64,000 bases of DNA from contig CBDHDG010000006.1 of assembly GCA_965261595.1 (NCBI GenBank), positions 1,152,001 through 1,216,000 on the forward strand, given 5' to 3'. The notes under the pieces are model-generated. The model ran no database searches and was not told the DNA's origin. It worked only from the letters and a program-made list of their open reading frames with translations. How positions within the stretch are numbered: position 1 is the stretch's first letter; each line of letters opens with the position of its first letter. Shown in pieces: positions 16,264 through 39,379 of the stretch. Position numbers and translations under genes: made by a program. The DNA is from a bacterium (GTDB lineage: Bacteria > UBA8248 > JACPRG01 > G963555815).

Positions 16264-16417
16264 CCAAGGTTACCTCATACCCAACTTAGCAAACGGCATT
16301 CCCGGTTCGCAACATTAGTTTCTTTCGTGATTATGCCTTTGACGCAGTAAGACACAAGATATAGGTGCGATTTTGAGACACTACATGTTGTGGTTATCCA
16401 ACAGGAGGGGGTCACTT

Positions 16418-16633
16418 TTAGGGACCCGTGGAACCACATATCCTCCCATTGATGATGGCTGGTGGCCCGACGTAAGAGCCCCGAATTTCGAGTGGGATGC
16501 GTTTCTTCGGCGGTTTCTTATTCCTTATCCCCATCAAGTAGAAACCCGCATAGAAGAGAAGATCAATAACCCTAGAGGCTGCTTCGGAGATGAACCATTC
16601 AAAAACGTCAAATCCTTCGCATTTTGCTTCCAT
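16418..16633 (-). CDS. Cassette A passenger: small hypothetical protein (71 aa)
   Basis: Strong AAGGAGG RBS 9 nt before the ATG; hydrophobic stretch followed by a basic patch. Confidence 0.55.
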   Translation of the reverse strand: MEAKCEGFDVFEWFISEAASRVIDLLFYAGFYLMGIRNKKPPKKRIPLEIRGSYVGPPAIINGRICGSTGP

Positions 16634-16672
16634 TGCCCCAGTCCTCCTTCAAGGTTGGGTGGTGATGGAACC

Positions 16673-16704
16673 GCAGCGCCAGGGGCGGGATCCCCTGGCG
16701 CTGC
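16673..16704. terminator. GC-rich hairpin between the cassette A passengers
   Basis: Perfect 13-bp stem gcagcgccagggg/cccctggcgctgc; no clear U-tract. Confidence 0.45.
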
Positions 16705-16726
16705 ACTTGTAAATCTTATTTTCCAC

Positions 16727-17077
16727 TTATTTGCACGAGATGAACTCGCACAACGTCTCAAAAACCTTGAATTCCCCTTCAAAACGGAAAGTCGTAGAGC
16801 CAGGGATGCTCTTCAGGTATTGGAATCCTTTTGGATGCTCACTCACCATGAAAATACGCCATTTCTCCTTTGCGTTTCGGTATCCAAGTTTATACAAAGC
16901 TACCAAATCGCGATCGTCCAACATGCGAAGTATGAGTTTTCTTCGTTCCAAATCCACATAAGCGGGGCTGTACACCGCACCTTTTCCGATAAAACAGGCC
17001 TTGTTGGATTCTCCAGCCATGACGGCGGAAGATGCGATGAGGGCAGTTGTAAGTATGCAACCGCCGATAGTACGCAT
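16727..17077 (-). CDS. Cassette A passenger: secreted hypothetical protein (116 aa)
   Basis: Signal peptide MRTIGGCILTTALIASSAVMA; Cys near both ends of the mature part. Confidence 0.65.
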   Translation of the reverse strand: MRTIGGCILTTALIASSAVMAGESNKACFIGKGAVYSPAYVDLERRKLILRMLDDRDLVALYKLGYRNAKEKWRIFMVSEHPKGFQYLKSIPGSTTFRFEGEFKVFETLCEFISCK

Positions 17078-17367
17078 GGGCAGACCCCCAGAAAATCGAG
17101 GTTGACACGGGCTTGGGGATTTGCTACAAGGAGGGTCTGTGAGGTCCTCTCTTGTAGCAACGCCCCGGGGTTCCCTCGGGGCTTCCACCCTTTGAAGTTC
17201 CATATACCACATGTAGTGGGTCGGATTCAATTTTCGAGGGACCACCATATCTTGTGTCTTACTGCGTCAAGGGCATAATCACGGTTTCTTTCGCCTCGCC
17301 GCCAGCCGCCGAACGCCTCCCTGAACACCGGAGGCTCTCCCGGAAGGCCATCGGTCCGGAGGGGGGC

Positions 17368-17400
17368 TTGATCGCCTGCCGTCAACACGATACATTGTGG
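17368..17400 (+). promoter_or_regulatory. Putative recA sigma70 promoter with overlapping palindromic box
   Basis: TTGATC-N17-TACATT; acacgatacattgtgg at 17385-17400. Confidence 0.5.
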
Positions 17401-17466
17401 TTCGCGTGGGTCCTCGAAGGCGCTTCGGCCGACACCTTTCCGACCCCGAGCAAGGGGAGGCTCTGA

Positions 17467-18525
17467 ATGAATCCGGCACCGGATGCCAAGGAGAAGGCGT
17501 TGGCGACGGCCTTTTCCCAGATAGAACGCCAGTTCGGCAAGGGCGCGATCATGCGGCTCGGCGACAAGCCCCTCCCATCGGGCGCATCCTCCATCTCCAC
17601 CGGGTCGATCTCCTTGGACGCGGCCTTGGGAATCGGAGGGGTCCCGCGCGGCCGCATCGTTGAAGTCTATGGCCCGGAGTCCTCCGGGAAGACCACCCTC
17701 GCCCTGCACATCGTCGCTCAGGCCCAGAAGCAGGGAGGCATCGCCGGATTCGTGGACGCCGAACACGCCCTCGACCCGGGCTACGCGAAGAAACTCGGCG
17801 TGGTCACCGACGACTTGGTCATCAGCCAGCCCGACTCGGGAGAGCAGGCCCTGGAGATCACCGAGGTGTTGGTCCGCAGCGGCGCCCTCGACCTGGTGGT
17901 TCTCGATTCGGTGGCGGCGCTGGTGCCCAAGGCCGAGCTCAGCGGCGATATGGGGGACGCGCACATGGGCCTGCAGGCCCGGCTCATGTCCCAGGCCCTG
18001 AGAAAGTTGACGGCCGTCATCAGCAAATCCAATACGTGCGTCCTGTTCATCAACCAGATTCGGATGAAGATCGGCGTGATGTTCGGCAACCCGGAGACCA
18101 CCCCGGGCGGAAACGCCCTGAAGTTTTATGCGTCCATCCGGATGGACATCCGCCGGATCTCGGCCATCAAGGAAAGCGGCGAGGTGGTCGGCAACCGTAC
18201 GCGGGTCCGCGTCGTCAAAAACAAGATGGCCGCCCCCTTCCGGCAGGCGGAGTTCGATATCCTCTACGATCAGGGAATCTCCAAGTCCGGCGACCTGTTG
18301 GATTTGGCATCCGAAATGGACTTGATCAAAAAGAGCGGATCGTGGTTTTCCTATCAGGATCAGCGCATCGGTCAGGGACGGGAAAATGCGCGGCGCTTTC
18401 TCGAGGACAACCCGGAAATCATGGACACGCTTGAAACCATTGTGCGCGAGAACCTCGGTCAGCCGTCCCAACCAGCGCCCGGCGCCGGGGAGAATCAGGA
18501 TTCCGAGGAAACCGACGTCGACTGA
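17467..18525 (+). CDS. recA: Recombinase RecA
   Basis: [50 protein letters not shown]. Confidence 0.99.
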
Positions 18526-18544
18526 AGGGACGCGACGTTCACCC

Positions 18545-19177
18545 ATGTCCCGGACGCGCCCAACAAAACCACCTCCTTCTTCCTCCTCCCGACCGACCCA
18601 CAAAAAGGGGCGGGACTTGACGGCGCTCGAGTCCGCCAAGGCGGACGCTTATCGTCTCATCGCCCGGCGAATGAGAACCCGCAAGGAGATTCAGACCCGG
18701 CTCCGACAACGGGGGCACCGGGAGGCGGTTGTCGAAGAAACCATCAAAAGCCTCCACGAGCTGGGCTACGTGGATGACGCCGCGTTCGCCCGAGAGTGGT
18801 GCCGGCGCCGGCTGGAGGACCGCCCGCTGGGCAGGCGGGGCCTGCTCCGGGAGCTCTCGGAGAAGGGCGTGCCGCGGGAAATCGCTGAGGGCGCCGTGAA
18901 TGAGGCGTTCGCGGGCGTGGAAGAAAGCCGACTGGCCGAGGGCTTGATCCGCCGACGCGCCGAAAATGGAATCGACCTCCGCTCCCCCAGGGACACCCGG
19001 CGGCTGAAGGGCTATCTTCTCCGCCGGGGGTTTTCCATCGAGAGCGTGAACGAAGCCCTCGCGGCCGCCGCGGGGACGCAAACTCGAGACCCGGCGGATC
19101 TGGAGGCCATGAGCCAGGACCCGCCATGGGACCCGCTGGAAGAAGAGATCGATGCCGATCGAGAAGGCGCGTCATGA
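18545..19177 (+). CDS. recX: Regulatory protein RecX
   Basis: Directly after recA; R.RT.KEI..RL, GYVDDAAFA, YLLRRGFS; start uncertain. Confidence 0.9.
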   Translation: MSRTRPTKPPPSSSSRPTHKKGRDLTALESAKADAYRLIARRMRTRKEIQTRLRQRGHREAVVEETIKSLHELGYVDDAAFAREWCRRRLEDRPLGRRGLLRELSEKGVPREIAEGAVNEAFAGVEESRLAEGLIRRRAENGIDLRSPRDTRRLKGYLLRRGFSIESVNEALAAAAGTQTRDPADLEAMSQDPPWDPLEEEIDADREGAS

Positions 19178-19502
19178 GCGGATTTTCCGCTTTCGGGGCC
19201 GGCCGTTTTCCCGCGGCTTGGCCGCAATCGGGCTTTTCGCATTGGCGGCGGCCCTCTGGGCAGCGGCCGCTTTCGCTCAGGGATCGGGCTCGACGCCTCC
19301 CGCCAACGGCGTCCGCGATCCGCGAAATCTCGGAATTCTGACCCCGCGGGAATATCCCCTCGTCAAAAGAGACGTCCGGTCCGCTTCGGACATCGTCCGG
19401 CGGGCCGAATCTCTCGGAAGACATCTTGCAAATCCCGAGGCGCAGTCCAATGGATCGAATCCCCGCGGCCGAGACCGTCCGCCGGCCGGAGCGGACCGCT
19501 GA
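19152..19502 (+). CDS. Hypothetical secreted protein
   Basis: Signal-peptide-like GLAAIGLFALAAALWAAAAFAQ; start uncertain. Confidence 0.45.
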   Translation: MPIEKARHERIFRFRGRPFSRGLAAIGLFALAAALWAAAAFAQGSGSTPPANGVRDPRNLGILTPREYPLVKRDVRSASDIVRRAESLGRHLANPEAQSNGSNPRGRDRPPAGADR

Positions 19503-20026
19503 AGGAGGGGACGATTCTCCCCGGTCTTCCGTCTTCCCGGACGAGCCCGTTCCGCAAATCCTGGCCGAGCCCGGCTGGCAAATCTGGTTCCGGGCGGGCC
19601 GGCGCGTCCCCTCCGTCTGGGGGGCGGCCCCGTCGGGGATCTATGTGTTGGCGCTGGACCTCGAGAAGGACGCCGAGATTACGGTGGGCGCTCTCGGGGA
19701 AAGAAAGTTTCCCGCGGGGCGGCACTTACTTCTATACGGGACGGGCCATGCGGGGGCTCGAGGCTCGGCTTGCGCGTCACGTGCGCAGAACAAAAGACCG
19801 GCCCCGGTGGCACATCGACCACCTTCGCGCGCGGGCAAGGCTTCTGACCATCTCGGTTCTCCCGGCCGACGACCCTTCACTGGAGTGCCGGACCGCCGGC
19901 CGGCTGCTGGCCGCGGGAGGAAGGATCGAGGTTCCCGGCTTCGGCTCATCGGATTGCGCTTGTCCCGCGCATCTGTTTTCTATGCCCCGTAGTGGCCGCC
20001 TCGGGGCGATTTCCCCAGGAGAATGA
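19450..20026 (+). pseudogene. DUF123 (GIY-YIG/Uri-like endonuclease), frameshifted near 19718
   Basis: GIYVLAL...VGALG in one frame; YFYTG, RLARH, WHIDHL, EC and GFGSSDC.C..HL in the next. Confidence 0.8.
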
Positions 20027-20030
20027 ATCC

Positions 20031-21347
20031 ATGACCAGGTCGTTGGCGATACGCGGCGCCACGCTTGTGACGCTGGATCCAGAGATCGGGGTCGTCCCGG
20101 ACGGACTTCTCGTTCTGGAGGACGGCCGAATCCGCGAGGTCGGGGAGGATCCCGGCGCGGACCCGCGGGCCGATGACTTCATCGACGGACGCGGGCTCAT
20201 CGCCCTGCCCGGCTTTGTCAACGCCCACATGCACACCCGCCCCGTCCGCGCCCTCGGCGACGAGCTCCCCGTCCCCGAGTGGCACGCCCGGTACGCCGAC
20301 GGCGTCAGCGTCCTCATGGACGACGAGGACTCCCGCAAGGGCGCTCTGTTGGCCTTCTCGGAATGCCTCCTCGCGGGCTATACGTCGGCGCTGGCCATGC
20401 CGGTGAAGCCGCAGGGCTGTTTTCGCGGGGCGGTCGAGATCGGCATCCGGGCCGGGGTCGCCCCACACACGGCGGACCAGCCGCTGATCGAAGGGTCATG
20501 CGACACCATCGAGGACAACGCCCGACTGATCGAGACGTGCGGCGTCTCCGCGGACGAGCGGGTCCATTCGTGGCTGGGCTTCGACGTCCTGGCGGGTTGC
20601 AGCGACGGGATGATCCGCGGGATGCGACAGACCGCCGGCCGGTTCGGCGTCCGCGTGCACGGCCACATGAGCGAGCACCGGGGAGAGGTCGGCTACGCCC
20701 TCGAACGGTGGGGGAAAAGACCCCCCGCCGCCTTGGAAGACCTGGGCCTCCTCGGTCCCGATCTGGTCCTGGCCCACTGCGTCAAGACCGACCGGGACGA
20801 CATCGAGGCCCTTGCGCGCACGGACACGAAGGTCGTCCACAATCCCGTTTCGAACATGAAGTTCGGCAGCGGGGGCGCGCCGGTCGCGGCGATGCTGGAA
20901 GCGGGCGTCACCGTCGCCCTCGGCACGGACGGGATGCTCTCGACCTACCGTCTCGACCCCTTCGAGACCATGCGCCAGGCATTGAATCTCCAGCGGCTCC
21001 TGGCGGAGGACGCGACCGCCCTCCTGACAGAAAAGGCCCTGGAGATGACCACCCTCCAAGGGAATCGGGCGCTCGGCTTCGACGGGGGCAGGCTTCGCCC
21101 GGGCCTGAACGCCGATGTGGTTCTCATCGACTCCCGGCGGCTTCAATGGACGCCCCGGGCGCGGGGAACCCACGACAACCTGATCGCCCTGCTCGTTTGG
21201 TCGGCCTCCGCGGCGGACGTGGACACGGTGATCGTGGATGGAACGGTGGCTGTTCGGAACCACACCCTGACGCTCGTGGATGAAGAGGTCGTCCGCCGGG
21301 AGGCCCAGGAAGCCTCCGATCGCCTCCTGGAGCGGCTGATTGTCTGA
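20031..21347 (+). CDS. Amidohydrolase (MTA/SAH deaminase-like family)
   Basis: LPGFVNAHMH, HMSE, AHCV, HNPVSNMK, LGTDG. Confidence 0.92.
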   Translation: MTRSLAIRGATLVTLDPEIGVVPDGLLVLEDGRIREVGEDPGADPRADDFIDGRGLIALPGFVNAHMHTRPVRALGDELPVPEWHARYADGVSVLMDDEDSRKGALLAFSECLLAGYTSALAMPVKPQGCFRGAVEIGIRAGVAPHTADQPLIEGSCDTIEDNARLIETCGVSADERVHSWLGFDVLAGCSDGMIRGMRQTAGRFGVRVHGHMSEHRGEVGYALERWGKRPPAALEDLGLLGPDLVLAHCVKTDRDDIEALARTDTKVVHNPVSNMKFGSGGAPVAAMLEAGVTVALGTDGMLSTYRLDPFETMRQALNLQRLLAEDATALLTEKALEMTTLQGNRALGFDGGRLRPGLNADVVLIDSRRLQWTPRARGTHDNLIALLVWSASAADVDTVIVDGTVAVRNHTLTLVDEEVVRREAQEASDRLLERLIV

Positions 21348-21562
21348 TCCCCTAACCTGGATTTCGGACAAAGAGGAGATGCCAGCCTTGTTTCATTCTG
21401 ACAACTTGTTTTTGATCAGCCGGTTGCCGGAAGCGAACAGAACGACAAGGCCGGAACACCGTGTCATTCACGGAAGTGCCACATTCAATCGCGGTGTAGC
21501 GTTGGAGGCGCTCAGAGGAACAGGTCTTGGATGACCCTTGGGAGGGTTCGGGGCGTCCCCGC

Positions 21563-22073
21563 TCATGGGGCCAGGAGGGCCTGAAGCTCGGAGGTCAGGG
21601 TCCGGGCGGAGGTCGGGCCAAAATGCTCCCCGGCCACAACTCCCAGCTTGTCTACGAGAACGAACTTGGGGACAAACCAGACGCGGTATGTATCCTTGGC
21701 CCAGGTGTGAGCGACTGAGATCCGAGCCGGGTCGATGATGACGACATTGGCCCGACCGCCGAAGCGCCTCCTGTGCTCAGACATGGGCTCAACAGAGCGC
21801 AGGCAGACGTTGCAGAGGTGGTCGATGAAGGATGAGGGTGGGCCAGCCCTCCCCCACGAGTTGCCGCAGGCGATAAGGGTCCTTCTCCTCGATGGCCACC
21901 AGACGGCGGGCCATCCCCTCCAGATCAAAAGAAGTCCGCTGACCATAGAGGGGCGCCGCGCCCATCGCCGCGCAAAAGGCCGCGAGGCCCAAACACCCCT
22001 TCAGGACCCCGCTCCATTCCCCGAAATGTCTTCTCACCCCCGGCGTCTCTCCTATCGCCTGCGGGCGCGTCAC
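21563..22073 (-). pseudogene. Thioredoxin-fold CxxC protein, frameshifted near 21830
   Basis: Signal-like N-part in one frame; FIDHLCNVC...WFVPKFVLVD in another. Confidence 0.6.
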
Positions 22074-24323
22074 TTGCCCATCGGGGCGATCTCTACGATC
22101 GCCTTGAGGTCCGAGTCGATGGTGAAGCGGATGCGGTCCCCCGGCTGGAGACCCTTGAGGAGCCCAGCCGGTTTCACCGGATAGCCCATGATCATCGCGG
22201 CCATAAAGCCCGGGATCTCCTTGTGGTCCACGACGATCTGGCTCTTGCGCATGTCGGCCAGGATGACCTTCCCCTCGCCCCTGAAGGTGAGGGGGGTGAT
22301 CTTCACGATGGCTTTCCGGTCGGCATCGATGGTGAAGCGAATCCGGGCGCCCGCTTCGAGGCCCTTGAGGAGCTTGGCAGGCTTGACCGGATAGCCCATG
22401 ATCATCTCGGCCATGAAGCCCGGGATCTCTTTGTGGTCCACGACGATCTGGCTCTTGCGCATGTCCGCCAGGATCACCTTCCCCACGCCCTCGAAGAGGC
22501 GACCGGCGGCGGCCACCCGCTCTTCTTTGGGCTCCCCGCCCTTTCCGACGATAAACGTCCCCTCCATCCCCATCTTCTGGTGGGTGTGGACGTGGCAGTG
22601 AAACTCCAGCGTGATGTCCTCATCGGGGGTGATGAACCGGGCGGTCCGCACACCGGGGCCTCGGAACTCCAGCATGAACATGGGGTTGAGGCCGGGGATC
22701 ATGAGGGCGTGGCGGACGGCGTCCTTGTTCTCCAGGACAACCTCCACCTCCTCGCACCGGCCGAGGCGGATCTCCTTGGGCTCAAAACCGACGACCTCCC
22801 CCTCGCCCGCGAATTCAACCCCTCCCTTCACGTAAATCCGGCGGAAACCCCGGGGCTTCTCACAGGAGCGGGCCACGGGCCGATGCTCCTCCAGGAGCCG
22901 CTGCCGTTCCGTGACTTTTGGCGTCTCGTCTCCGGCGTTGTCGGAGCGATGCCCGCGCCTCTCGCCCGGGGCATTTCCCTCTCCTTTTTTGGGGGTGAGA
23001 GCCGTGGGGCTTCGGTTTGGCCTCCTTGCCCCATCCTTTTTCGTGCTCGGCGAAGGTTGAGTGAAAGATGGACGGGTCAAAGACGGGGACCTTGCCTCGG
23101 TAGTAATCGGGGTCAAAGAAGCGGTCGAGAGACGTGGCGACAAGGGGCAGGCCGTCTGGACCGATGAACTTCTCATAGGCGATGATCGTCAGGTCCCCGC
23201 CCGGGGAGATCCCCTTGTTCGTCACCCTCTCCTCGGTATGGTCGTGCATCACCCAGACGCCGGGCCCCGAGGCATAGGTATCGTCGGGTGTGGTGCGCAA
23301 CTCTAAGTCTATCCGCTGCGCGGGGGATATGGTGAAGACATCTCGGGCGATCCGCGCGGACTCCGGCACGGGATAGCCGTCCACGTGGGTCAGGATGGGA
23401 TGGTGGCCGTGTGTGTGCAGGGCGATGGTCCGCGCCCCGGCGTTCAGGATGCGGAGCTTGACCCGCTCGTTCGGCTTCACCTTGATCAGGGTGTCCCGGA
23501 GGGTGAAGGGAAAGGAGCGGCCGTTGAGCATGAAGATGTTGGGCTGCCGCTTTGTCGAGTCATACTCCCGGTGCATCTTCTTCTCGATCTGCCGGGGGTC
23601 ATCGTACTTCGTGGGCATGTCGTTGAGGCGGTCGTCGATGTCCGTGTTGACCAGGGAGCACTCCCGGTCGTAGCGCTCCGCCTGGGCCTTGGCCAGATCC
23701 TTGATCTCTCCGGCGCCCACAATGAGGTGGCGGAAGTTGTCGTTGGGCCGGTTGGGCTCAATGATGAACATCCCGACCAGGCCCATCAGGACGTGGACGT
23801 CGGGCTGAACGTGGCAGTGGTACCAGTGGGTGCCGGGGTTCTTGGCGACGAAATCATAGGTGAACTGGTCGCCGGGTCTTACCGCCTCCTGCGTGATGGT
23901 GGGAACGCCGTCCATGGCGTTGGGGTGGATGGTCCCGTGAGGATGGATGGTGTGGGGGAAGTAGTGGGTGTTCCGCAGGTGGATCTTGATCCGGTCTCCC
24001 TGCTCGACCCGGATGGTCGGGCTGGGGAACCGGGCCGCAGAGACCATCCCCTTCCCTTCGGGGGCGAAGACCCAGAAGGTGACGAACTTGCCGGGATAGA
24101 CCTCCTCCTGGACCTCGATGACCTCCAGGTTGATGGTGACCTCGTCGGGGTCTCCGTCACCGTCCAGGTCGCGCCCGAGAACAACGGCCTCCTTCGACAT
24201 CCCCGGGATCGGGGGCTCGATAAAGGCTGGGAGATCCTTGGAAGCGCCCGCCGGAGCCGGGAAAAACAGAAACAATGACAAAGAAAACAAGACCGTCCAC
24301 AGCCACGTCCGCGGGAATCTCAC
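22070..24323 (-). pseudogene. Two-domain multicopper oxidase + cupredoxin + 2x CusF-like fusion, frameshift near 22990
   Basis: HTIHPHG, WYHCHV...H..M, LHTHGH, WVMHDH; then FHCHVHTHQKMGMEG and two VVDHKEIPGFM..MIMGY domains; frame change at a T6G5 run. Confidence 0.85.
22082..22490 (-). repeat. 210-bp-period tandem duplication encoding two CusF-like domains
   Basis: GKVILADMRKSQIVVDHKEIPGFMA.MIMGYPVKPA.LLKGL occurs twice. Confidence 0.9.
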
Positions 24324-24420
24324 GGCCTCTCCCTCCTCCGCAACATTTCGCCCCTCCCCCAGGATTGCCCTCCTGGAAAAGCGCGTCGGGTCCGGTAGCC
24401 GTACCCCCCCCATATTTTTT

Positions 24421-24978
24421 CTATTTCACGGTTTCAATCGCGACGATCTTCTTTTTGGCGGCGTCAATCTTGAACTTGACCCGGTCGCCCGGCTTGAAGC
24501 CCTTCAGGAGGGCCTTGGACTCCACCGCGTATCCCATCCCCTCGTAAATGCCCTTAGTCGCCATCTCCATTTTCATCCCGGGTTTCATCTTCATGCCCGG
24601 CTTCATCTTCATCTGGGCTTTCATTTTCATCCGGCCTGGGGCCTTTGCGCTCATTTTGCCTGCCATGACCTCTGCGGCGTAGGCGTACCCTATGGCGGCC
24701 TTGGCCTTCGCGACGGCGCGGGCGTGGTCATAGGCCCCCTGGGGCTTTTTGTGGTTATGAATGCCGCTCGTCAGCAACATCTTCGCGTCATCGATGAGGG
24801 TGTGGTCAAGCTGCATGTTCCGCCCCATTGACATTTGTTTCATGGCCGCCGTGGCCTTTGCAATCGCCGCCTTCGCGTCTTTGAAACGGGCGGGGCACTC
24901 AAAGGCGATCGCTGTTGAAGCAAAACCGAACGCCAAAAACACTCCGACAACGATTCCTGCGATGATCCGGGTTTTTAT
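24421..24978 (-). pseudogene. Met/Lys-rich periplasmic copper-binding protein with truncated CusF-like domain
   Basis: Signal peptide begins at ATA (lost ATG); MKMKPG repeats; EG|MGY lacks the H/M ligand segment present in the neighbouring CusF repeats. Confidence 0.7.
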
Positions 24979-25647
24979 TTTGTTTCCCCACTTGGTGTCA
25001 AAAGATTGTCGGGATGGAGCTTCTGGAGGGCCCCTGCCCTCTGAACAAGCGGCAGCGGTGTTTCGAAGCGCTACAGGAAGCCCACAATACCGTTGGAGGA
25101 GGTGGCGGTCTGAAGGAAAGGCGCTGCCGAGGCCGCTAATTAGATCAACCAGAGCCAGTCTATTTAATTCTCCCTGTCGAGATGGAAGACGAGGTGCACC
25201 CTCCACTTGTGCCTTCGTCTCCGGCTTCGTGGTAACCGGCAAAGGGTATTTCCAACGCGCCCAGCAACAGCAAGAACAGGAGAGCACCGAGAATGATCTT
25301 CATTCCAGACTTCCCCCAATTCGCGAATGTGGGCGAGCGGTGGACGCTCGTAGCAGCCCTTCTCGGCTGGTATGGGTCATCCTCGACGGTCGGAGGGTCG
25401 CGGCCCTTGGTCTTGAATCCTTTGCTTAACCGGAATTTCCCATATCAACTTGCTTGCGTGGTTTCCGGTCCCCTTTCCCGATGAAAACCATTTGATCCCC
25501 TTCCAATGGGCTTGTCAACAGCCTTCCAACCCTCCGTAACAGGGGGCTGACGGCCATCGGCTGGCCCAAAGGGCGGACCCTCGCCCTTCGGTCTCCTTTG
25601 TCCACTTTCATTCCGGCCTTCATCTTCATGGCCGGTTTCATTTTTTT

Positions 25648-26555
25648 CGGAATTATGTACTTGACGCAGACGACCACAACATGTAGATCGTCCCCGCGTC
25701 TCGGCTGACCACAAGATGTAGGGGCATGCTTCAACTCAAGTCATGGTGGAGTTGGATTCGCAATTATGCGCTTGACTCAACCGAAGAGGGATCATACAAT
25801 GACTGAATCATGCTCAATTGGCTTCGCAAAGTCGCCCTCTTTTTGGCGGGTGAATTACTGCGGAGCTGGATATGGCCCATTGCGGTCACGGCGGCTGGCG
25901 TCATGATCGGTTTTGCGCAACATATCCAGTTGTTCAACCTATATGTTGGAGCGGTCATTCTGTTTTCAGTTTCCTCTATGGGATTGTTGCGATTCAGCGA
26001 ATGGCGGTATCGTAATAGAGTTGCGGATATGCTTAACTTTCATAGTGTGAGAACTGACAGAATAATCGACAAAGCTGGTGTAGTAAAATCACTGCGGATT
26101 GGTGCTACGTTTAACAACAAAGCTCTTTTCCCGGTGACATTTGAGGTTGTAAATGTCGTCTCAACATTTGATAAGTTGTACCCGACAAAAGAGCCATATG
26201 CCAAGAATAGCTATACCATCCCTGCAGGAGGGATGGGGTGGTTTGACGATCACTACATATCCTATAGAGCAGAAGAGAAGCGGCGTTTTTGAGGGCGGTC
26301 TTGAATTTGAGTTTAAGTACGGAAGAAAAGGAAAAACCAACAACACATTGCATATAAACAAAAAGTTGTTTTTACACTTCAATGAAAAGGGCGATATTCA
26401 GCGCGTGGATTTTATCGATCAATGAAACCGAACGATCTGATAGAGCGCATCTTCTGGAAACGGATCGATGGAAGCATGCCCCTACATCTTGTGGTCAGCC
26501 GAGACGCGGGCGCGACCTACATGTTGTGGTCGTCTGTGTCAAGTATATAAATACG
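25648..26555. mobile_element. Transposase-free IS1595-like cassette B (908 bp)
   Basis: 85-bp IRs (about 78/85) at 25648-25732 and 26471-26555; 8-bp TSD attttttt at 25640-25647 and 26556-26563. Confidence 0.92.
25810..26425 (+). CDS. Cassette B passenger: low-GC membrane-anchored hypothetical protein, frameshift near 26260
   Basis: Two N-terminal TM segments then a beta-rich domain; continues as PIEQKRSGVFEGGLEFEFKYG in a second frame. Confidence 0.65.
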
Positions 26556-26564
26556 ATTTTTTTA

Positions 26565-27464
26565 GGTGATTGTAAAAGATATGACACCGGATTAGGCTGG
26601 TGTCGTGGACCTGAAGAGCTTTGAAGTCCTTGTAAAATCGGAAGCTACAGCGAGACGCCATCTGCTCATGGCGTGTCAGAAAAACGGGCGTAAAATCTGC
26701 CCTCGTTGTGAGGGTCGAAAACGCTACGTTTTGGGCACGCGGGGGCGCTTTCGCTGCGCTGGGTGTCGGTACACCTTCGGGCCGTTCACGGGCCGCTGGC
26801 TGGGCCAACTTCGCCTCTCGGCCCGGCAGTGGCTTTGGGTGGTGAAGCTCTTTGAGCTGGAGGTCTCGGCCCGCAAGATGGCCCAGCAACTCGCCGTGAG
26901 CTATCCGACAGCGCTGCGGGCCGTGACGACGCTCAGGCGCAGTCTTGTGGCCGGCACGCCGGGGGGACAGGAGCTTCTTCGAGGGGAGGTGGAGGCGGAC
27001 GAGGCCTACTTCGGGGGCAAGCGCAAGGGCAAGAGAGGCCGAGGCGCAGCGGGTAAAGTCCCTGTTTTCGGCATATTGGAGCGGGGCGGCCGGGTGAAGG
27101 TGGAGGCGGTCGGCAACGTCAAGGCCCAGACCCTTTTGGCCTCCACCGTGAAGTTGGTCCGTCGGGGCAGCGTGGTCTACACCGACCGCTACCGGGTCTA
27201 TGACGCCCTGATGTTCTGCGGCTATCGCCACTTGCGGGTGGATCATGATCGGCGCTTCAGTCGGGGCAAAGTGCACATCAACGGCCTGGAAGGCTTTTGG
27301 GCCTACGCCAAGGAGAGGCTCATCAAACATCATGGGGTGTCCAAAGAGCGGTTCCCCCTCTACCTGAAGGAGATGGAATTCCGTTACAATCACCGACACC
27401 AGGATCTCTTTCCCCTGGTGGTACAACATCTCACTCAATTGGTGTCAAAACCTTTATAATCCCC
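26565..27464 (+). mobile_element. IS1595-family IS (900 bp)
   Basis: 24-bp IRs ggtgattgtaaaagatatgacacc / ggggattataaaggttttgacacc (19/24); TSD ttttttta/ttctttta (7/8). Confidence 0.9.
26605..27459 (+). CDS. IS1595-family transposase
   Basis: CPRC...CAGC, EVEADEAYFGG, KRGRGA.GK, YTD, HINGLEGFW, EFRYN. Confidence 0.95.
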   Translation: MDLKSFEVLVKSEATARRHLLMACQKNGRKICPRCEGRKRYVLGTRGRFRCAGCRYTFGPFTGRWLGQLRLSARQWLWVVKLFELEVSARKMAQQLAVSYPTALRAVTTLRRSLVAGTPGGQELLRGEVEADEAYFGGKRKGKRGRGAAGKVPVFGILERGGRVKVEAVGNVKAQTLLASTVKLVRRGSVVYTDRYRVYDALMFCGYRHLRVDHDRRFSRGKVHINGLEGFWAYAKERLIKHHGVSKERFPLYLKEMEFRYNHRHQDLFPLVVQHLTQLVSKPL

Positions 27465-27916
27465 TTCTTTTATTTGGGCTTATGCAGAGGGCACAACGCC
27501 GAAAACCAAAAACACTCCGACAACCAAACCCGTTGCTTAGCCGTGTTTCATTTCGCTTCTCCCCTGACGGCTGATGAACCACAAATCGGGCGCGCCGCGC
27601 GCACCACAACCCGCGTTCGCCCGGCGGAGTCGGCCGCATCTCCCACGAGCGCGAACGGCATGGCCCCGCAAACGACCGAGGTCACGGCGTTCCGAACGTC
27701 CAACAACTTACCGGACGCAAGACTCGCCATCGGATTCAGCCAATCCCCGCGTCGTCACTCGTCTTGAGCAAGAGAGCGACACCCCCCGGGCATTCCTGCG
27801 CCGCCGTTCGGCCGATCTTTTCCCCCTTATTATTTAACCTCTACCGGGAGTAAGAATTTCCAGACCCACATGCGGCGCAGGAAGTCCTTGTCCGCACCTT
27901 TGAAGGAACCCGGTTC

Positions 27917-28591
27917 CTAGACGTTCTCTATCCGCCGGGCGGACAGCCCCTGGAAAACGTGGAGCATGAACGCCGCCGAGACGACGGGCGCCAGGAGGTT
28001 CAGAAGGGGAACGCTGAACAGAAGGACGATGAGCAGTCCCGCCCCGATGATCCGCACCCGGTTGCCTTTCCGGACTCGGTGAACCGCTCTCTTATCCAGG
28101 CGTCTGATTGCGACGAGCTCGAAGTACTCCCGTCCCAACAAGTAAGCATTGAGCAGATAGGCGGCGACAGGCCCCAGCCCCGGAATCAAGTACACCGGCA
28201 ACGCGATCAGGTTGATCACGACCAGGGCGGCCGTCAACCGGACGACGATGGCGATACTTTCCGAAAGGGGCTGCGCCCGGGTCGGCGGCAAACCGGGGTA
28301 ATGGCGCGACTCGACGGCCGCGAAAATCTTTTCCAGAAACAGCGTCATCATCAGCGTCGCGACGGCGGGGAACAACAGCCATGTCAACACCAAGGCCGAG
28401 AGACCGCCGAGGATGTCGAGGGCGTTGTCGAGCCAACCGATCTTGAAGACGGTGACTTCCGCCAGGATCCACCAAACGCCGGCGATCAGGACGGCGAACA
28501 CGCCGGCCGTGATCAAAATGCCGCGCCGGACCACCTTCCAGCACGACCTTTCCGTTAAGATGGACAAGGCCCGAACGGCCGCGGTCAACAT
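27917..28591 (-). CDS. EI24/CysZ-like membrane protein
   Basis: FLE.I..AVESRHYP, NAYLLGREYFE, VPLLNLLAP. Confidence 0.8.
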   Translation of the reverse strand: MLTAAVRALSILTERSCWKVVRRGILITAGVFAVLIAGVWWILAEVTVFKIGWLDNALDILGGLSALVLTWLLFPAVATLMMTLFLEKIFAAVESRHYPGLPPTRAQPLSESIAIVVRLTAALVVINLIALPVYLIPGLGPVAAYLLNAYLLGREYFELVAIRRLDKRAVHRVRKGNRVRIIGAGLLIVLLFSVPLLNLLAPVVSAAFMLHVFQGLSARRIENV

Positions 28592-28680
28592 CGTCCATTC
28601 CAATCCGGGTAGATCGTCACAGGCTCAATCTCAGAATCCACTTCGTATGGGCGTCCGTGAATGACCCTGGAGATTATCGC

Positions 28681-29943
28681 ATGCCCAACCGCTGGCTCAT
28701 CGTATTCTCCGCCGCGCTGATCAGCCTGGTCGGTTTCGGCAGCCGGGGCGTCTTCGGCGTCGTCTACGTCGAGATGCTGAAGGAGTTCCACTGGGACCGG
28801 GCCGCGTTGGCGGGCGTGTACTCGGTGGGGATGCTCCTGATGGGGTTCGGCGGACCCCTGGCGGGAAGCCTTTCGCGCAAAATCGGGTTCAGGCGGTACT
28901 ATCTGGTAAGCGGACTGCTCGTCGGGTTGACCTTTCTCTTGGCCAGCCGCGTCCAAACGCTCGCGCAGGTGTACTGGACCTACGGCCTGCTCGGCGGGCT
29001 TTCGCTGGCGGCGCTCGGCTTCGGCCCGACGCAGGGACTGGTCGCCCGGTGGTTCGAGACGCGGCGCGGCCTGGCCATCGGGATCGTCGGCGCGGGCGTG
29101 GGCGCTTATCCGCTTCTGGCGCCCCTCGCCCAGCTTCTCATCGACGCCCTCGGATGGCGAAACGCCCTGGTCGCCCTGGGAGTCTTCTTCTTCGCCGTTG
29201 TGACGCTCCTGGGAACCACCCTCATGCGGGAGCCGCCGAAGGAGGCGGGCGACCCGCAATCCTCCGACGCGCCCCGCGAAGGCGCCGCCGCGGGGGGGGG
29301 AGGGGGGGATTGGACGCTGCGCGGGGCCCTGGGAACCGGACCCGTCTGGTTGATCGGCCTGGCGTGGTTCTTCATGGCCGTCTCGATCCATTTCGTGAAC
29401 ACCCACCTCGTCGCCCTGCTGGTCGGGATCGGCCATCCCGCGTTGCTGTCGTCCAGCGTCTTGGCCTCGGTGGGGGTCTTTTCGGTGATCAACCGGGCCG
29501 TGAGCGGGGGGATCTCCGACCGTCTCGGGCGCGTCCGGATTTTTGTCGCGGGCGTCGTCGCGGCGTGCCTGGGCCTGTTGACGCTCTTGTTCCTCCTGAC
29601 AACCGGGGGGGGCGCCGGGGGAGTGGGGTGGTTCTATGCTTTCGCCGTCTTGTTCGGTCTCGGAACGGGGGCGCAGACGACCCAGGTCACGGCGCTGGCG
29701 TCCGATCTCTACCGGGGGCGGTTCTTCGGAAGTATCATCGGTTTTTTGACCATCGGTTTCGGCCTGGGGGGGGCGGTGGGGCCTTGGCTCGGCGGGCTCA
29801 TCTTCGAGTGGACCGGGAGCTACCGCGTTATGATAGGCTGCGTCCTGGCGACCCAGGCGGCCGCGGCGCTCTCCCTGATCGCGGCCGGCCGGTTGGGCCG
29901 GCGCCTCCGCGAACCGTTCCCGGCGGACGCGGGCGCGCGCTGA
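28681..29943 (+). CDS. MFS transporter
   Basis: About 12 hydrophobic segments; RWFETRRGLAIG, G.ISDRLGR. Confidence 0.92.
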   Translation: MPNRWLIVFSAALISLVGFGSRGVFGVVYVEMLKEFHWDRAALAGVYSVGMLLMGFGGPLAGSLSRKIGFRRYYLVSGLLVGLTFLLASRVQTLAQVYWTYGLLGGLSLAALGFGPTQGLVARWFETRRGLAIGIVGAGVGAYPLLAPLAQLLIDALGWRNALVALGVFFFAVVTLLGTTLMREPPKEAGDPQSSDAPREGAAAGGGGGDWTLRGALGTGPVWLIGLAWFFMAVSIHFVNTHLVALLVGIGHPALLSSSVLASVGVFSVINRAVSGGISDRLGRVRIFVAGVVAACLGLLTLLFLLTTGGGAGGVGWFYAFAVLFGLGTGAQTTQVTALASDLYRGRFFGSIIGFLTIGFGLGGAVGPWLGGLIFEWTGSYRVMIGCVLATQAAAALSLIAAGRLGRRLREPFPADAGAR

Positions 29944-32529: not shown

Positions 32530-32535
32530 GGGTTT

Positions 32536-33707: not shown

Positions 33708-33733
33708 CGCCCCGTCGTCCAGCCCCCCGGCTC

Positions 33734-34150: not shown

Positions 34151-34578
34151 GATGTCGCTCCTCCCACCTCAAACCCATTCCTAAAGAGGACGCGGCGGGC
34201 TGGCCGGTCCATGCGCCATCAATCCGAACGGCCGGGGCGCCGGGACCTTGAAAACCTACTTCGCGCGCCACCAGGTCCCGGACATGTCCGGGTCGCCCAT
34301 GCTGAGGAGGTATTTCCCCTGGGCGTCTTCCTGCATATAGGCGACGCCCGACGCCCTTCTGCCGTCGGCGTAGAAGCCGCTCGTCCGATTGCTGTCGAAG
34401 AAGATCCGGCCTTCCCGGATGCTTAACGTCCCCGCGGCCCTCCACCGGGGCGTGATGATCTCGTACGTTCCGTCCTCCCGGATGATCCACTCGGCCCCGA
34501 CGTTCGTTGTGCTCCCCCGCTCTAGGGTTTTGTTGGACACTCGATTGATCCATGATTCATGGAGAAAGGGGTGTCGCG

Positions 34579-35870: not shown

Positions 35871-36419
35871 GGTCGAATACCCTCACCCGAGTGTCCAATA
35901 ACCCAGGGGCGGTCCAGTGCCGTACTGCGCCCGCTGATAAGAAAGACTCCCGTCCCACCGCCCGGCGATGGAGCGGATGTCCTGAATGGGCATGGCGGAC
36001 ATCGTCGCGCCGCAACCCGCCGCGCCAAGTCCGGCCGCAATCAATACCGAGATCGCCATCCAGGTTCGGGCGATATCGCGCATCCTTCGAGTCATGGGAG
36101 GCCCCCCCTCTCAAACCGGTTTTGAACTCAGGCGGCCATCGTACAGCCGTTTCGCCCGTGTATCCATCCAAACAAGACGCGAGGCCGGATATTCCGCCCC
36201 TCCCCCCCCTCCAGGTCTCCATCGGAGGAAGCACGGACCCCGCGGCGCTCCGGAGCATCCACGGCCGGACGCGCCGGGATTCGGAGAATTTCAGCCCGCG
36301 TCACCTTCGCCATCCGGTTTCTGTATAATCCAGGAGTTTTGTTTTCCTGAACACACCGAAAAGACAAGCGCCCAATCGCGCGAAGGAATGCGCGCTCAAA
36401 TCGCGGGAGGACATCAGGC

Positions 36420-38012
36420 ATGGAGAAAGTAGACGGAATCGTCATCGGCGCGGGCCACAACGGCCTTATCACCGCCGCGTATCTGGCCAGGGCCGGCCTG
36501 CGGATGCTGGTCATCGAGCGCAACCCCGAGATCGGCGGCGGCACCACCACCGATGAGGTCACCCTGCCGGGTTTCCGGTCCAACCTGCACGCCAACTTCC
36601 ACTTCGGATGCGTGGACTCCCCCTGGTTCCGGGACCTCGAGCTCCAACGCTACGGCTTCTCCTACATCCTGCCCCAGGCCATGATCGCCATGACGTATCC
36701 GGACGAAACCTGCATGACACTCCATCAGGACCCGGAGAAGACCGCCGCGTCCATCGCGCGGATCTCCAAGGCCGACGCCGAAAGCTTCCGGGATCTGCAC
36801 GAGATGTTTTCGGTCAAGATGCGGCCCTTCATCCTGTCCGCCGCCTTCTCTTCTCAACACGACTTGGAAGAGGCCCTGAACCGCATGGAGGGGCCGCACG
36901 CCGACGCGCTCCTGTCCTTCAACAAGCTCTCCGTCAACGGGGCCATCGAAAAGGCCTTCGAGCACGACAAGGTCCGGAACTGGCTCAGGCTCATCATCCA
37001 CGCGCGGACGGTGGACTTCGACACCGCCGGGTCCGGCGGATTCCTGCCCGCCATCTTCTCCGGCCTGCACCGGACCGGGCTCGCCATGGGCGGATCGCTT
37101 CAGCTCCCCCGCGCCCTGGTCCGCATCATCGAAGAGGGGGGCGGCGCCGTTGTAACGAACGCCTCCGTGAGGGAGATCGTTCTGAAATCAGGCGAGGCCC
37201 GGGAAGTGGTCCTGGAGGACGGAACGCGGTATGAGGCCGGTCGATGCGTCATCAGCGCCATTGACGCACCCCAGACGATCCGGCTGGTCGGGGAGGAGGC
37301 CTTCGAGGACAACGTGGTCCAAAAGCTCCGGAATTGGAAGTGGGGGGACCATACCCTCCTGACGATCCACCTGGCCCTGAACGAGCCTCCCCGGTACGCC
37401 TCGGCCGATTTCGACCCGGACATCAACCGCACGTTCAACGTCTTCATGGGCCCGGAAACCTCCGAAGACTTCCATGAAAACTCGGCGGAGCTCGACCGGA
37501 ATGAGATGCCGACGCGGCCCATGGGCAACGGCGCGTGCAACTCCCTCATCGACCCAAGCTATGCCCCCGAAGGGAAACACGTCGCCTTCTGGTGGCCCTT
37601 CGCCCGGTTCGATTTGAATGGAGACGCCGCCAATTGGGACAACGTCCGGGAGGAAGCCACGCAGCACCTCATCAAATCCTGGCAGGGCTACGCGCCCAAC
37701 GTGAACGAAGACAAGATCCTCGCCAGCTACCTTTTCACGCCCCTCGACATCTCGCGCCGAAACATCAACATGGGGCGCGGGGCCGTGCAATCGGGCGCGT
37801 ACGACCTGGACCAGTCCGGAGTCCATCGGCCCCACGTCTCGATGTCGAACTCGCGGACGCCGATTCCGGGACTCTATCTCTGCGGCTCGACCACGGGCGC
37901 GGGCGGCGGCATGAGCGGCGCGCCGGGCTACAACGCGGCCAACGTCATCGCCGAAGACCTCAACGTCAAGCCGTGGTGGGAGCGGATCACCCCGCCCAAG
38001 CAGCCCCTGTGA
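36420..38012 (+). CDS. FAD-dependent oxidoreductase, phytoene desaturase family
   Basis: VIGAGHNGL..AAYLA, ER...GG, TPIPGLYLCG, G.SGAPGYNAA. Confidence 0.92.
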   Translation: MEKVDGIVIGAGHNGLITAAYLARAGLRMLVIERNPEIGGGTTTDEVTLPGFRSNLHANFHFGCVDSPWFRDLELQRYGFSYILPQAMIAMTYPDETCMTLHQDPEKTAASIARISKADAESFRDLHEMFSVKMRPFILSAAFSSQHDLEEALNRMEGPHADALLSFNKLSVNGAIEKAFEHDKVRNWLRLIIHARTVDFDTAGSGGFLPAIFSGLHRTGLAMGGSLQLPRALVRIIEEGGGAVVTNASVREIVLKSGEAREVVLEDGTRYEAGRCVISAIDAPQTIRLVGEEAFEDNVVQKLRNWKWGDHTLLTIHLALNEPPRYASADFDPDINRTFNVFMGPETSEDFHENSAELDRNEMPTRPMGNGACNSLIDPSYAPEGKHVAFWWPFARFDLNGDAANWDNVREEATQHLIKSWQGYAPNVNEDKILASYLFTPLDISRRNINMGRGAVQSGAYDLDQSGVHRPHVSMSNSRTPIPGLYLCGSTTGAGGGMSGAPGYNAANVIAEDLNVKPWWERITPPKQPL

Positions 38013-38067
38013 CCCGAGGCCCTCTCGGGCGCAAAGAATTTGTTTCCACCGATCAGGGAAGGACGCC

Positions 38068-38481
38068 ATGAAAACCACCGTCATTCAGTCGGACGCCCCG
38101 CGTCCCCTGGCCAACTATTCCGAGTGCGTCGTCGCCGGCCCGCTTGTCTTCGCCGCCGGCCAGATCGCCAGCGACTACAAGACCGGCATCCCGCCCTCAG
38201 CGCGAACCGATTCCGCCTTCCCCTATTACGGGTCAAACATCAAGCGCCAAACGGACTACATCCTCGGCAACCTGTCGAAAACCTTCGAGGCCGCCGGGTC
38301 CTCTCTGGACCACGTCGTCAAGGCCCAGGTCTTCATAGCCGACCTGAACGAGTTCTTCGCCTTCGACGAGGTCTGGAAAACCTACTTCAAGACGCCGCCC
38401 CCGCGCACGACCATCGGGACGACCGGCCTGCTGGCGCCGGGATGCAAGGTGGAGATCGACCTCATCGGCGTGGCCGGCTGA
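38068..38481 (+). CDS. RidA/YjgF family protein
   Basis: YS, AGQI, VVK..VF, PPRTTI, KVEID. Confidence 0.9.
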   Translation: MKTTVIQSDAPRPLANYSECVVAGPLVFAAGQIASDYKTGIPPSARTDSAFPYYGSNIKRQTDYILGNLSKTFEAAGSSLDHVVKAQVFIADLNEFFAFDEVWKTYFKTPPPRTTIGTTGLLAPGCKVEIDLIGVAG

Positions 38482-38569
38482 GCGGAGACGCCGGCGCGAA
38501 CGCGGGTAAGTCGAGGGGGTCCCAACCTCAATTTGAAAAGCGACGTTTGTTCCAGAAAAGGAGACATAT

Positions 38570-38942
38570 ATGTCCAGGACCGTTGTCACGCCGGACGGAA
38601 TCGGAGATCCCGTCACGCCCTATTCCCACGGAATCCTGACCGATTCCAAAGAAATCCTCTTCCTCGCGGGACAGGTCCCGATCGACAAGGACGGCAACAT
38701 CGTCGGAAGCGGAGACATCGAGGCCCAGACCCGGTGCGTTTACGACAACCTGGAAGCCGTCCTCGCAAAAGCGGGGATGGGCTGGTCCAACGTCGTCAAG
38801 TTCAACATCTATATGAAGAGGAAGGAAGACCGGGACCGGTTCACGGCGCTGCGCGAGAATGACCTGTTCGGGAAATTCTACCCCGGCGGTGACTATCCCC
38901 CGAGCACGCTGGTCTTCGTGGATCTCTACAAGGAAGAATTTC
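38570..38942 (+). pseudogene. RidA family protein truncated by cassette C
   Basis: PYSHG, AGQV, PPSTLV.V.L; the final (L/I)EIE strand is replaced by the cassette end. Confidence 0.8.
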
Positions 38943-39379
38943 CGGAGTTATATACTTGACACAGACGACCACAACATGTAGATCGCGTCCGCGTCTCGGT
39001 TGACCACAAGATGTAGGGGGGAGGTTTTTCGAGGGATCATCGGGGCTGACCCCGGCGCCGTGGCCTTTTTTGTGGCAAGTGTTTTTTTATGGGCTTGGCT
39101 TTTAGATTCAGGGATGGGATTTCTTTATTCTCACATTTTGGGTCAATCTCCAAATGATTGACCATCTGCTTGATCTTACCCCTCTTGATATCGGATTGTG
39201 ATTTTGAGCCGTGCTCCCCTTTTGGCAATGAGGGGAAGGATTTCTCCCCAAATTTTACGCAGTAATAGTGGTCAGTCGTTTCAATCTCGTGTCCTTGGGC
39301 ACACTTCTTGAGCATGTCAAAGACATTTTTGAGCTTAACTTGGCCAAAAGAGCCCAAACGCCCTAAGCCGCCAAGAGGT
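38943..39379. mobile_element. Truncated cassette C (one end of the cassette B family)
   Basis: 38943-39018 closely matches the cassette B IR; the other end is missing, cut by IS3 copy 2. Confidence 0.85.
39037..39357 (-). CDS. Cassette C passenger: low-GC protein with HicA-like pattern
   Basis: VKLKNVFDMLKK...TDHYYCV...LP..H...DIKRGKIKQMVNHLEI; TTG start inferred. Confidence 0.5.
   Translation of the reverse strand: MGSFGQVKLKNVFDMLKKCAQGHEIETTDHYYCVKFGEKSFPSLPKGEHGSKSQSDIKRGKIKQMVNHLEIDPKCENKEIPSLNLKAKPIKKHLPQKRPRRRGQPR

What the first reader, a model, noticed from the sequence alone, without database searches (positions are those of the whole stretch)
16326..39379. Family of transposase-free IS1595-like gene cassettes (A 16326-17283, B 25648-26555, C 38943-39379) carrying orphan genes
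Seen: A and B have long terminal IRs (37 and 85 bp) and exact 8-bp target duplications (gtttcttt; attttttt) but no transposase, only AT-richer passengers. C is one end nearly identical to B and truncates a RidA gene. All five ends share one layout: CG..TTAT, TTGAC at offset 13, palindromic box at offset 26. Each cassette has different cargo (secreted protein plus small ORF; TM-anchored protein; HicA-like protein). Known: 8-bp TSDs in AT-rich targets and passenger-carrying derivatives are typical of the IS1595 family. Inference: a non-autonomous gene-shuttling system mobilised in trans. The two autonomous IS1595 in this window have different IRs, so the cognate transposase is probably elsewhere.
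Basis: partly seen in the sequence, partly recalled or inferred. Interest (0 to 1): 0.85.

Follow-up and report, generated by a model that had tools for sequence, protein, structure and literature searches.

The report
IS1595 cargo cassettes with NrdR-like ends
These are real, recently jumping gene cassettes that borrow the transposase of related jumping genes, which is a known kind of element, but their ends carry near-perfect copies of the binding box of the cell's DNA-building-block sensor NrdR, which hints at an undescribed way for the host to control when they jump.

Summary
Confirmed. A occurs 10 times and B 11 times in this genome (same-form copies 99.8-100% identical). Nine of 10 A and 6 of 11 B copies have exact 8-bp duplications. 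A's site is empty in 4 of 4 sequencing runs and in a congener. C is half of a 1205-bp cassette that split a RidA gene, intact in the congener. Five intact IS1595 copies elsewhere share the 22-bp ends and are the likely movers. These are mobile insertion cassettes, a known kind. Cargo looks incidental: 10 of 11 B copies are frameshifted.

The unusual part is the 16-bp end box. It matches the NrdR box and retrieves the host's ribonucleotide reductase, dcd, smc and mazG/mutL promoters. Cassette ends carry two boxes at spacings NrdR binds worst. Many autonomous IS1595 carry one box at each end (unselected end: 24 of 35; control 8 of 1050 positions). The box is missing from much closer transposase relatives, and one clade has LexA-like sites at both ends instead. 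I favour a host-repressor site (about 0.55); binding is untested and the nrdR-absence test was inconclusive. The scan noted this look-alike before, here and in other genomes.

The parts
16326..17283 (.). Cassette A, 958 bp, no transposase; 10 paired copies in three forms in the genome
16318..16325 (+). Left copy of A's 8-bp target duplication (right copy 17284-17291)
   Evidence: empty site skips 966 = 958+8 bases in 4 of 4 runs
16326..16393 (+). A left end: 22-bp repeat, NrdR-like box 16352-16367, second box 16378-16393 (centres 26 bp apart)
17204..17283 (-). A right end: 22-bp repeat, box 17242-17257, second box 17204-17219 (centres 38 bp apart)
16727..17077 (-). Cargo A1, 116 aa, hydrophobic signal-like N-terminus, two Cys; orphan apart from a 35% identical paralogue in sister forms of A
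16418..16633 (-). 71-codon ORF in A, not shown to be a gene
16373..17278 (+). 301-codon open frame antisense to and in register with the minus-strand ORFs; probably a shadow frame
25648..26555 (.). Cassette B, 908 bp, no transposase; 11 copies
25640..25647 (+). Left copy of B's 8-bp target duplication (right copy 26556-26563)
25648..25724 (+). B left end: repeat, boxes 25674-25689 and 25709-25724 (centres 35 bp apart)
26479..26555 (-). B right end: repeat, boxes 26514-26529 and 26479-26494 (centres 35 bp apart)
25759..25812 (+). Internal IS1595 end-like stretch with -35, 17-bp spacer, -10 and the cargo start codon: remnant of a captured element end
   Evidence: same layout at +91 in cassette F
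25810..26425 (+). Cargo of B, membrane-anchored protein, 204 aa when intact; frameshifted near 26260 here (160 aa)
   Evidence: (table 4)
38943..39379 (.). Left 437 bp of cassette C (full copy G000:C7:1038945-1040149, 1205 bp); boxes 38969-38984 and 39004-39019
38935..38942 (+). Left copy of C's 8-bp duplication; the right copy and the RidA tail now lie at G000:C7:1040150
39037..39357 (-). 106-aa cargo of C, weakly HicA-like
38570..38942 (+). RidA-family gene interrupted by C; intact in congener G001
39380..40760 (+). IS3-family element that cuts C (180 full-length matches in the genome); right boundary approximate
26565..27464 (+). Autonomous IS1595 with different ends, abutting B; not the cognate mover
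3245..4888 (+). Second autonomous IS1595 with different ends; not the cognate mover

Best explanation
A, B and C are non-autonomous IS1595-family mobile insertion cassettes. Shown: they are multicopy, recent and flanked by 8-bp duplications. Inferred: the transposase of five intact passenger-carrying IS1595 copies elsewhere in the genome binds their 22-bp ends in trans and inserts them into AT-rich targets. They grow by wrapping outer ends around pieces of other elements; B and F enclose an inner element end with its promoter and passenger gene. They multiply largely without regard to the cargo, and identical copies then act as recombination sites that exchange flanks. The 16-bp box 27-42 bp inside each end is most likely an operator of the host repressor NrdR (about 0.55 on its own). 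In autonomous elements it covers the -10 region of a leaderless transposase promoter, with a second box at the far end. In cassettes it is doubled and the promoter is lost. The confidence given is for the cassette part.
For: Copies: 10 paired A, 9 with exact duplication; 11 B, 6 exact, 2 with reciprocally exchanged flanks, 3 forming a chain of shared flanks. Empty A site in 4 of 4 runs laid and in G001. RidA is intact in G001 and runs on into what is C7:1040158+ in G000. Cognate elements: 5 intact copies, 295-296 aa, no stops, C2C2 and DDE motifs present. They match the five window ends at 15-20 of 22 bases, against 5-10 for the window's own IS1595. Further cassettes D-G carry other cargo, and so do cassettes in G006, another genus. 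B cargo is broken in 10 of 11 copies. Box evidence is listed in the section on the most novel reading and in the full report.
Against: Transposition in trans was not observed. Which of the three cognate subfamilies moves which cassette is not resolved. No empty allele of B's site was found: the island holding it is absent from G001, and no such joint was among the 15 of 24 joints shown. Exchanged flanks could be assembly errors. No autonomous element with double-box ends was found, so the origin of those ends is unexplained. For the box: NrdR needs two boxes in vitro (PMC13584703), and linkers of 19-20 bp are at or near the weakest for all four NrdRs tested (PMC12051234 Table 5).
Confidence: 0.9

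Rival explanations
1. The box is an inner binding site of the transposase itself (end handling or autorepression), and the likeness to the NrdR box is convergence.
For: It sits at a fixed distance from the tip at both ends. It is kept in 227-266-bp MITE-sized elements and in cassette ends that have lost the -10 T (13 of 14 ends) and lack a start codon at 47-54 (13 of 14). One box per end, or two at 10, 19-20 or 22 bp linkers, do not fit NrdR's known binding rule. Box-bearing transposases of the cognate group form one clade of 10 rows, 9 with a box.
Against: The same box at the same offset occurs in two transposase groups only about 28-39% identical in full-length matches. It is missing from all 31 rows outside the clade whose end could be located, although most are 63-78% identical to the cognate transposase. 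It is palindromic and retrieves host nucleotide-metabolism promoters. One clade has LexA-like sites at both ends instead.
Confidence: 0.3
2. The boxes are NrdR sites in origin but act only on transcription (repressing inward promoters), and the doubled boxes of cassettes are relics with no present role.
For: In autonomous elements box 1 overlaps the -10 hexamer; 11 of 11 such promoter-bearing single-box ends have the -10 T and a start codon at 49-53 (a twelfth single-box end is a truncated A end). Both ends of the cognate elements drive genes.
Against: In cassette ends both boxes are 6/6 in 13 of 14 distinct ends while linkers diverge, better than in the autonomous ends (4-5/6). The spacing classes 35-37 and 26 recur in another genus. 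That pattern suggests selection, not decay.
Confidence: 0.2
3. The cassettes are kept because their cargo benefits the host (secreted, membrane, toxin-antitoxin or restriction-modification genes).
For: Cargo in sister cassettes includes a DNA methyltransferase-like ORF (D) and restriction-modification-like ORFs (G006 L120), both named by eye. C's partner gene has a 35% identical homologue in a G006 cassette. Homologues of B's cargo keep 204-208 aa.
Against: 10 of 11 B copies are frameshifted. D and E are interrupted by other insertion sequences. A's site is empty in conspecific samples. The genome is undergoing a general IS expansion: 54 IS1595 domain matches and 180 IS3-like copies.
Confidence: 0.15

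Closest known systems
Mobile insertion cassettes (MICs), e.g. MIC231 of the IS231 group
   Same: [quoted passage not shown]
   Different: Built on IS1595-type ends with 8-bp duplications, not IS231 (IS4 family). Ends carry two 16-bp boxes. MIC231 details are recalled; De Palmenaer 2004 was seen only as a reference.
IS1595 family, passenger-carrying 'transporter IS' (Siguier, Gagnevin, Chandler 2009)
   Same: 8-bp duplications, N-terminal zinc finger and DDE transposase in the cognate elements (family traits from PMC8101967, passages). Passenger genes in the autonomous copies.
   Different: The cassettes lack the transposase. The 2009 paper could not be read, so whether it or ISfinder lists such derivatives or the box is not known. 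Assignment to the ISNwi1-like and ISSod11-like groups is recalled, not tested.
NrdR operator (pair of NrdR boxes) of ribonucleotide reductase promoters
   Same: All six key positions (C4, A6, A8, T9, T11, G13; PMC13584703) are met by both boxes in 13 of 14 cassette ends. The motif retrieves the host's reductase promoter.
   Different: Linkers are 10, 19-20 or 22 bp, not 15-16 or 25-27. Autonomous elements have one box per end. No regulated gene lies behind the cassette boxes.
Host-factor sites at IS ends (IHF at IS1 ends; DnaA, Fis, Dam and LexA at IS50/Tn5) - all recalled
   Same: A host DNA-binding protein site placed just inside transposon ends and over the transposase promoter.
   Different: NrdR in this role was not found in my searches. 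Binding here is inferred from sequence only.

Membership tests
Mobile insertion cassette (MIC) | Paired IS-type terminal inverted repeats | tested here: met
Mobile insertion cassette (MIC) | Passenger gene(s), no transposase | tested here: met
Mobile insertion cassette (MIC) | Evidence of movement (multiple sites, target duplications, empty alleles) | tested here: met
Mobile insertion cassette (MIC) | Cognate intact IS with matching ends in the same genome | tested here: met
   5 intact copies, 15-20 of 22 end bases for the five window ends
Mobile insertion cassette (MIC) | Mobilisation in trans demonstrated | not testable with these tools
   needs a transposition assay
IS1595 family | 8-bp target duplication | tested here: met
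   9 of 10 A, 6 of 11 B, C across two contigs
IS1595 family | Zinc finger plus DDE_Tnp_IS1595 transposase | tested here: met
   In the cognate autonomous elements (NF033547; motifs); absent from the cassettes themselves
NrdR operator | 16-bp box with C4, A6, A8, T9, T11, G13 | tested here: met
   6/6 in both boxes of 13 of 14 distinct cassette ends
NrdR operator | Two boxes with a 14-17 or 24-27 bp linker | tested here: not met
   Linkers 10, 19, 20, 22 bp in G000, 10 and 19-21 in G006; host promoters do meet it, 9 of 11 top boxes
NrdR operator | nrdR gene in the host | tested here: met
   TIGR00244 at G000:C2:158433
NrdR operator | Box lost where the host lacks nrdR | tested here: inconclusive
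   Both-end boxes in 3 of 9 distinct paired elements from nrdR-positive genomes and 0 of 3 from genomes without a match; one 5/6 single end in a genome without a match; MAGs may be incomplete
NrdR operator | NrdR binding shown | not testable with these tools
   needs a binding assay or ChIP
HicAB toxin-antitoxin pair (cargo of C) | HicA dsRBD-like toxin and HicB antitoxin family match | tested here: inconclusive
   No Pfam hit, no real NCBIfam hit and no PDB hit for the partner. Atlas third hit 0.79 to a cluster with HicA in 11% of members. Single-sequence model pLDDT 49.5.

The most novel reading that the evidence does not exclude
A large part of the IS1595 family has an exchangeable slot for a host repressor just inside both ends, and in many members, including these cassettes, that repressor is the dATP sensor NrdR. 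The NrdR tetramer needs two boxes, so one box per end would let it bridge the two ends or loop the element. That would silence the transposase promoter and hold the ends when dATP is high, and release them during active or stressed replication. The cassettes' two boxes per end, spaced half a turn out of phase, would prevent binding within one end and favour end-to-end bridging. This would be nucleotide-pool control of transposition, which I did not find in the papers searched.
Probability: 0.35. Interest if true: 0.85.

Novelty: new variant of a known kind. Interest (0 to 1): 0.6.

Why it matters
The cassettes are a clean, very recent example of gene capture and genome reshuffling by transposase-free IS1595 derivatives in a marine, probably sponge-associated bacterium. 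That alone is an incremental finding. The end boxes matter more. If NrdR binds them, a near-universal nucleotide sensor would control a widespread transposon family, and NrdR would act on boxes about a kilobase apart, outside its known two-box rule. Named, cultured elements (ISAcr1 with the box; ISCsp2 and ISRama1 with LexA-like sites) make this directly testable.

Tried and rejected
Cargo as decayed transposase: no transposase family hit. Insertion into CRISPR repeats, suspected from recurring AT-rich targets: the flanks printed for 7 copies show no array. An IS1-like transposase as mover, suggested by a fragment inside cassette E: the three IS1-like loci looked at have no such ends. The window's own IS1595 elements as movers: 5-11 of 22 end bases. 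The box as an SOS motif of this host, suggested by a 5/6 box-like stretch before recA: the top matrix hits are reductase, dcd, smc and mazG/mutL promoters. Strict end patterns found 0 matches in GTDB genome contigs and in viral contigs; a looser pattern found 3 viral loci, one an autonomous IS1595. No double-box pair at 35-36 or 26 was found among 60 distinct ends in 79 of 120 metagenome loci; one at 34 and one at 42. A1 has no homologue among 5.8 billion proteins or 1.84 billion representatives; both queries lacked the first Met, and the Atlas result was weak. The fold of the HicA-like protein was low-confidence and not searched further. A sample of Bacteroidota, which I recall lack nrdR, could not be reached, and the one Phocaeicola plasmid element gave no recognisable ends. 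The careful tree did not finish; one search is the quick tree and a FastTree. A base-composition tally of target sites and a look-up of junction microhomology in the A forms were not done, so 'AT-rich targets' rests on the flanks printed.
Full report
Observation. A (16326-17283) and B (25648-26555) have the arms and 8-bp duplications described. They are AT-richer than the window (0.495 and 0.458 against 0.631 GC). The common end layout occurs 76 times in the 6.17-Mb genome and once in a shuffled copy. None of the cargo ORFs tested matches a transposase family.

Copies and empty sites. A has 10 paired copies: 6 of the window form (at most 1 difference), 3 identical 1315-bp copies and one alternative 958-bp form; 9 of 10 have exact duplications. 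B has 11 copies, 99.8-100% identical; 6 have exact duplications, 2 have reciprocally exchanged flanks and 3 share flanks in a chain. I laid 4 of the 23 listed runs (two seawater, two host-associated, four studies) on 15300-28800; all 4 join 16317 to 17284, skipping 958+8 bases. Congener G001 is also empty there. No empty allele of B's site was seen; its island is missing from G001. C is the left 437 bp of a 1205-bp cassette, complete at C7:1038945-1040149. The missing tail of the RidA gene lies right behind that copy with the matching duplication, and G001 has the gene intact and collinear across the two pieces. So C inserted into RidA and the halves were later separated, by recombination between C copies or by a misjoin.

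The mover. The genome has 54 IS1595-domain matches. One group has the same end layout: five intact copies of 1751-2101 bp with 295-296-aa transposases, C2C2 and DDE motifs, 8-bp duplications and a passenger gene read from the far end. Their first 22 bases match the five window ends at 15-20 positions; the window's two IS1595 match at 5-10. Relatives of this transposase occur at 58 GTDB loci from many phyla. In the 9 distinct paired elements found there the conserved part is a 22-23-bp repeat holding a -35 hexamer, followed by a -10 at 37-42 and usually a start codon near 49-53. B and cassette F each enclose such an end with promoter directly before their cargo, which suggests capture of a passenger together with its end. 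More cassettes (D-G) and lone ends occur in the genome and in G006, a different genus, one with a homologue of C's cargo.

Cargo. A1 (116 aa) has no relative in two large searches but a 35% identical paralogue in sister forms. B's gene is 204 aa in 1 of 11 copies and in one laid run, and homologues are 204-208 aa where full length; the other 10 copies are frameshifted. C's two genes resemble HicA and HicB only by eye and by a weak Atlas lead. The amplification of a broken form argues that these elements spread like MITEs, with cargo as hitch-hiker.

The end box. Each cassette end has two 16-bp quasi-palindromes. Both meet all six key positions of the NrdR box (C4, A6, A8, T9, T11, G13; PMC13584703, parts 1-2 of 4 read) in 13 of 14 distinct ends, against a genome rate of 1.2 in 10,000 positions. 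Centres are 35 (8 ends), 36 (3), 38 (1) or 26 (2) bp apart; G006 has 35-37 and 26. These ends have lost the -10 T (13 of 14). A matrix trained only on element boxes ranks, apart from three further boxes that belong or probably belong to cassette ends, the promoters of the ribonucleotide reductase, dcd, smc and mazG/mutL near the top. Nine of the 11 top host boxes have a partner of at least 5/6 at 31-32 or 42 bp, three of them with ties at other distances. The host has nrdR. [quoted passage not shown] The cassette spacings are all about half a turn out of phase, but they represent only two or three independent classes.

Beyond this genome. End plus 6/6 box was found in 3 distinct genomes of 32 searched, whereas the end alone was found in 27 and nrdR in 31 (34 handles, two duplicated). 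In a quick tree of 51 rows, 9 rows with a 4-5/6 box fall in one clade of 10 (SH-aLRT 92), the exception being a gammaproteobacterial element. Of the other 41 rows, one is the outgroup, 9 had no locatable end and 31 score at most 3/6. A metagenome scan for end plus box returned 121 or more loci; many of those with enough flank are autonomous IS1595 of another group, about 28-39% identical to the cognate transposase in full-length matches. Among 35 distinct two-ended candidates from 120 loci, the unselected end has at least 5/6 at the same offset in 24 (29 allowing one base of shift), against 8 of 1050 control positions. In those 24 the six key columns are 98% identical between the two ends, the other box columns 46% and the sequence beyond 26%. 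A few of the 35 pairs are probably spurious. Among 18 plasmid elements picked by transposase alone (18 of 67 hits; fetched), three have 6/6 at both ends (ISAcr1, Tardibacter, Legionella antarctica). Three have a LexA-like site at both ends instead (ISRama1, ISCsp2, Achromobacter; one clade; consensus recalled). The other 12 have neither, or no ends could be located. That LexA-like motif occurs in 0 of 70 ends of box-bearing elements. In samples of 401 genomes from each of three phyla, 35 loci gave 13 end pairs: 4 with both boxes (3 distinct) and 9 without. Both-end boxes occur in 3 of 9 distinct elements from nrdR-positive genomes and 0 of 3 from genomes without a match, which is not decisive.

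Reading. The cassette explanation is secure (0.9). For the box I give a host NrdR site about 0.55, a transposase site 0.3 and other explanations 0.15. The patchy spread over the transposase tree, the constant offset in distant groups, the palindromy and the LexA-like replacement favour a host repressor. The fixed offset and retention in promoter-less ends favour a role in transposition itself. End-to-end bridging by the tetramer would reconcile the two, but it is inference only (0.35).

Known and new. MICs and transporter IS are described (PMC3129680, passages; family traits in PMC8101967, passages). Siguier 2009 and ISfinder could not be read or searched, and one review was not held. Searches for NrdR with IS1595 (0 papers), NrdR box with transposase (2), NrdR with insertion sequence and transposition (1), LexA with IS1595 (0) and NrdR with mobile elements (13, 12 listed) gave no title on the subject; I saw only the listings, and the library lacks most subscription journals. 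Earlier notes of this scan saw the cassettes in this genome and the look-alike box here and in two other genomes; two of them preferred the transposase. They are leads, not support. One of them pointed me to PMC9110341.

Verdict. A new variant of a known kind; interest 0.6, resting on the testable NrdR question and not on the cassettes alone.

Noticed in passing
L251 (ISRama1), L252 (ISCsp2), L266: These betaproteobacterial IS1595 elements carry a LexA-like CTG-N10-CAG site (consensus recalled) at offset 37-38 of both ends and no NrdR-like box; they form one clade.
   Followed up: partly
G000:C6:1313036-1314350 and C6:773267-774224: Cassette A exists in three forms: A1 only (window), paralogue A2 only, and a 1315-bp form with A1 followed by A2 lacking its N-terminus; each gene is followed by a hairpin.
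   Followed up: partly
window 16373-17278 (+): One reading frame stays open across nearly the whole of all three A forms (301, 301, 420 codons); it is in register with the minus-strand ORFs and probably a shadow frame.
   Followed up: partly
G000:C6:1638040, C6:1127391, C6:1740928, C1:205161, C2:98756, C7:790278, C7:799300, C4:419246: Canonically spaced NrdR-like pairs before dcd, smc, mazG/mutL, vsr and several unnamed loci suggest a broad NrdR regulon in this host.
   Followed up: partly
G000:C6:1667271 and C7:905605; C3:129361, C7:8746, C7:29393: B copies with exchanged or chained 8-bp flanks, the signature of recombination between copies or of misassembly.
   Followed up: partly
window 39380-40760 and 34513 onward: IS3-family element with 180 full-length matches in the genome; congener G001 lacks A and C at the matching sites, pointing to a recent IS burst.
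   Followed up: partly
G000:C7:988245-988892: 648-bp element with autonomous-type single-box ends, a passenger gene and no transposase: a plain internal-deletion derivative, unlike the double-box cassettes.
   Followed up: partly
window about 17385-17400: A single 5/6 box-like stretch overlaps a likely -10 region upstream of recA (read by eye).
   Followed up: no
L279, L280: IS1595 elements from two Pseudomonadota genomes without an nrdR match have a tandem second copy of the inverted repeat where other elements have the box.
   Followed up: no
G000:C6:353819-356738: A 2920-bp IS1595 of another group is inserted inside a copy of cassette C.
   Followed up: no
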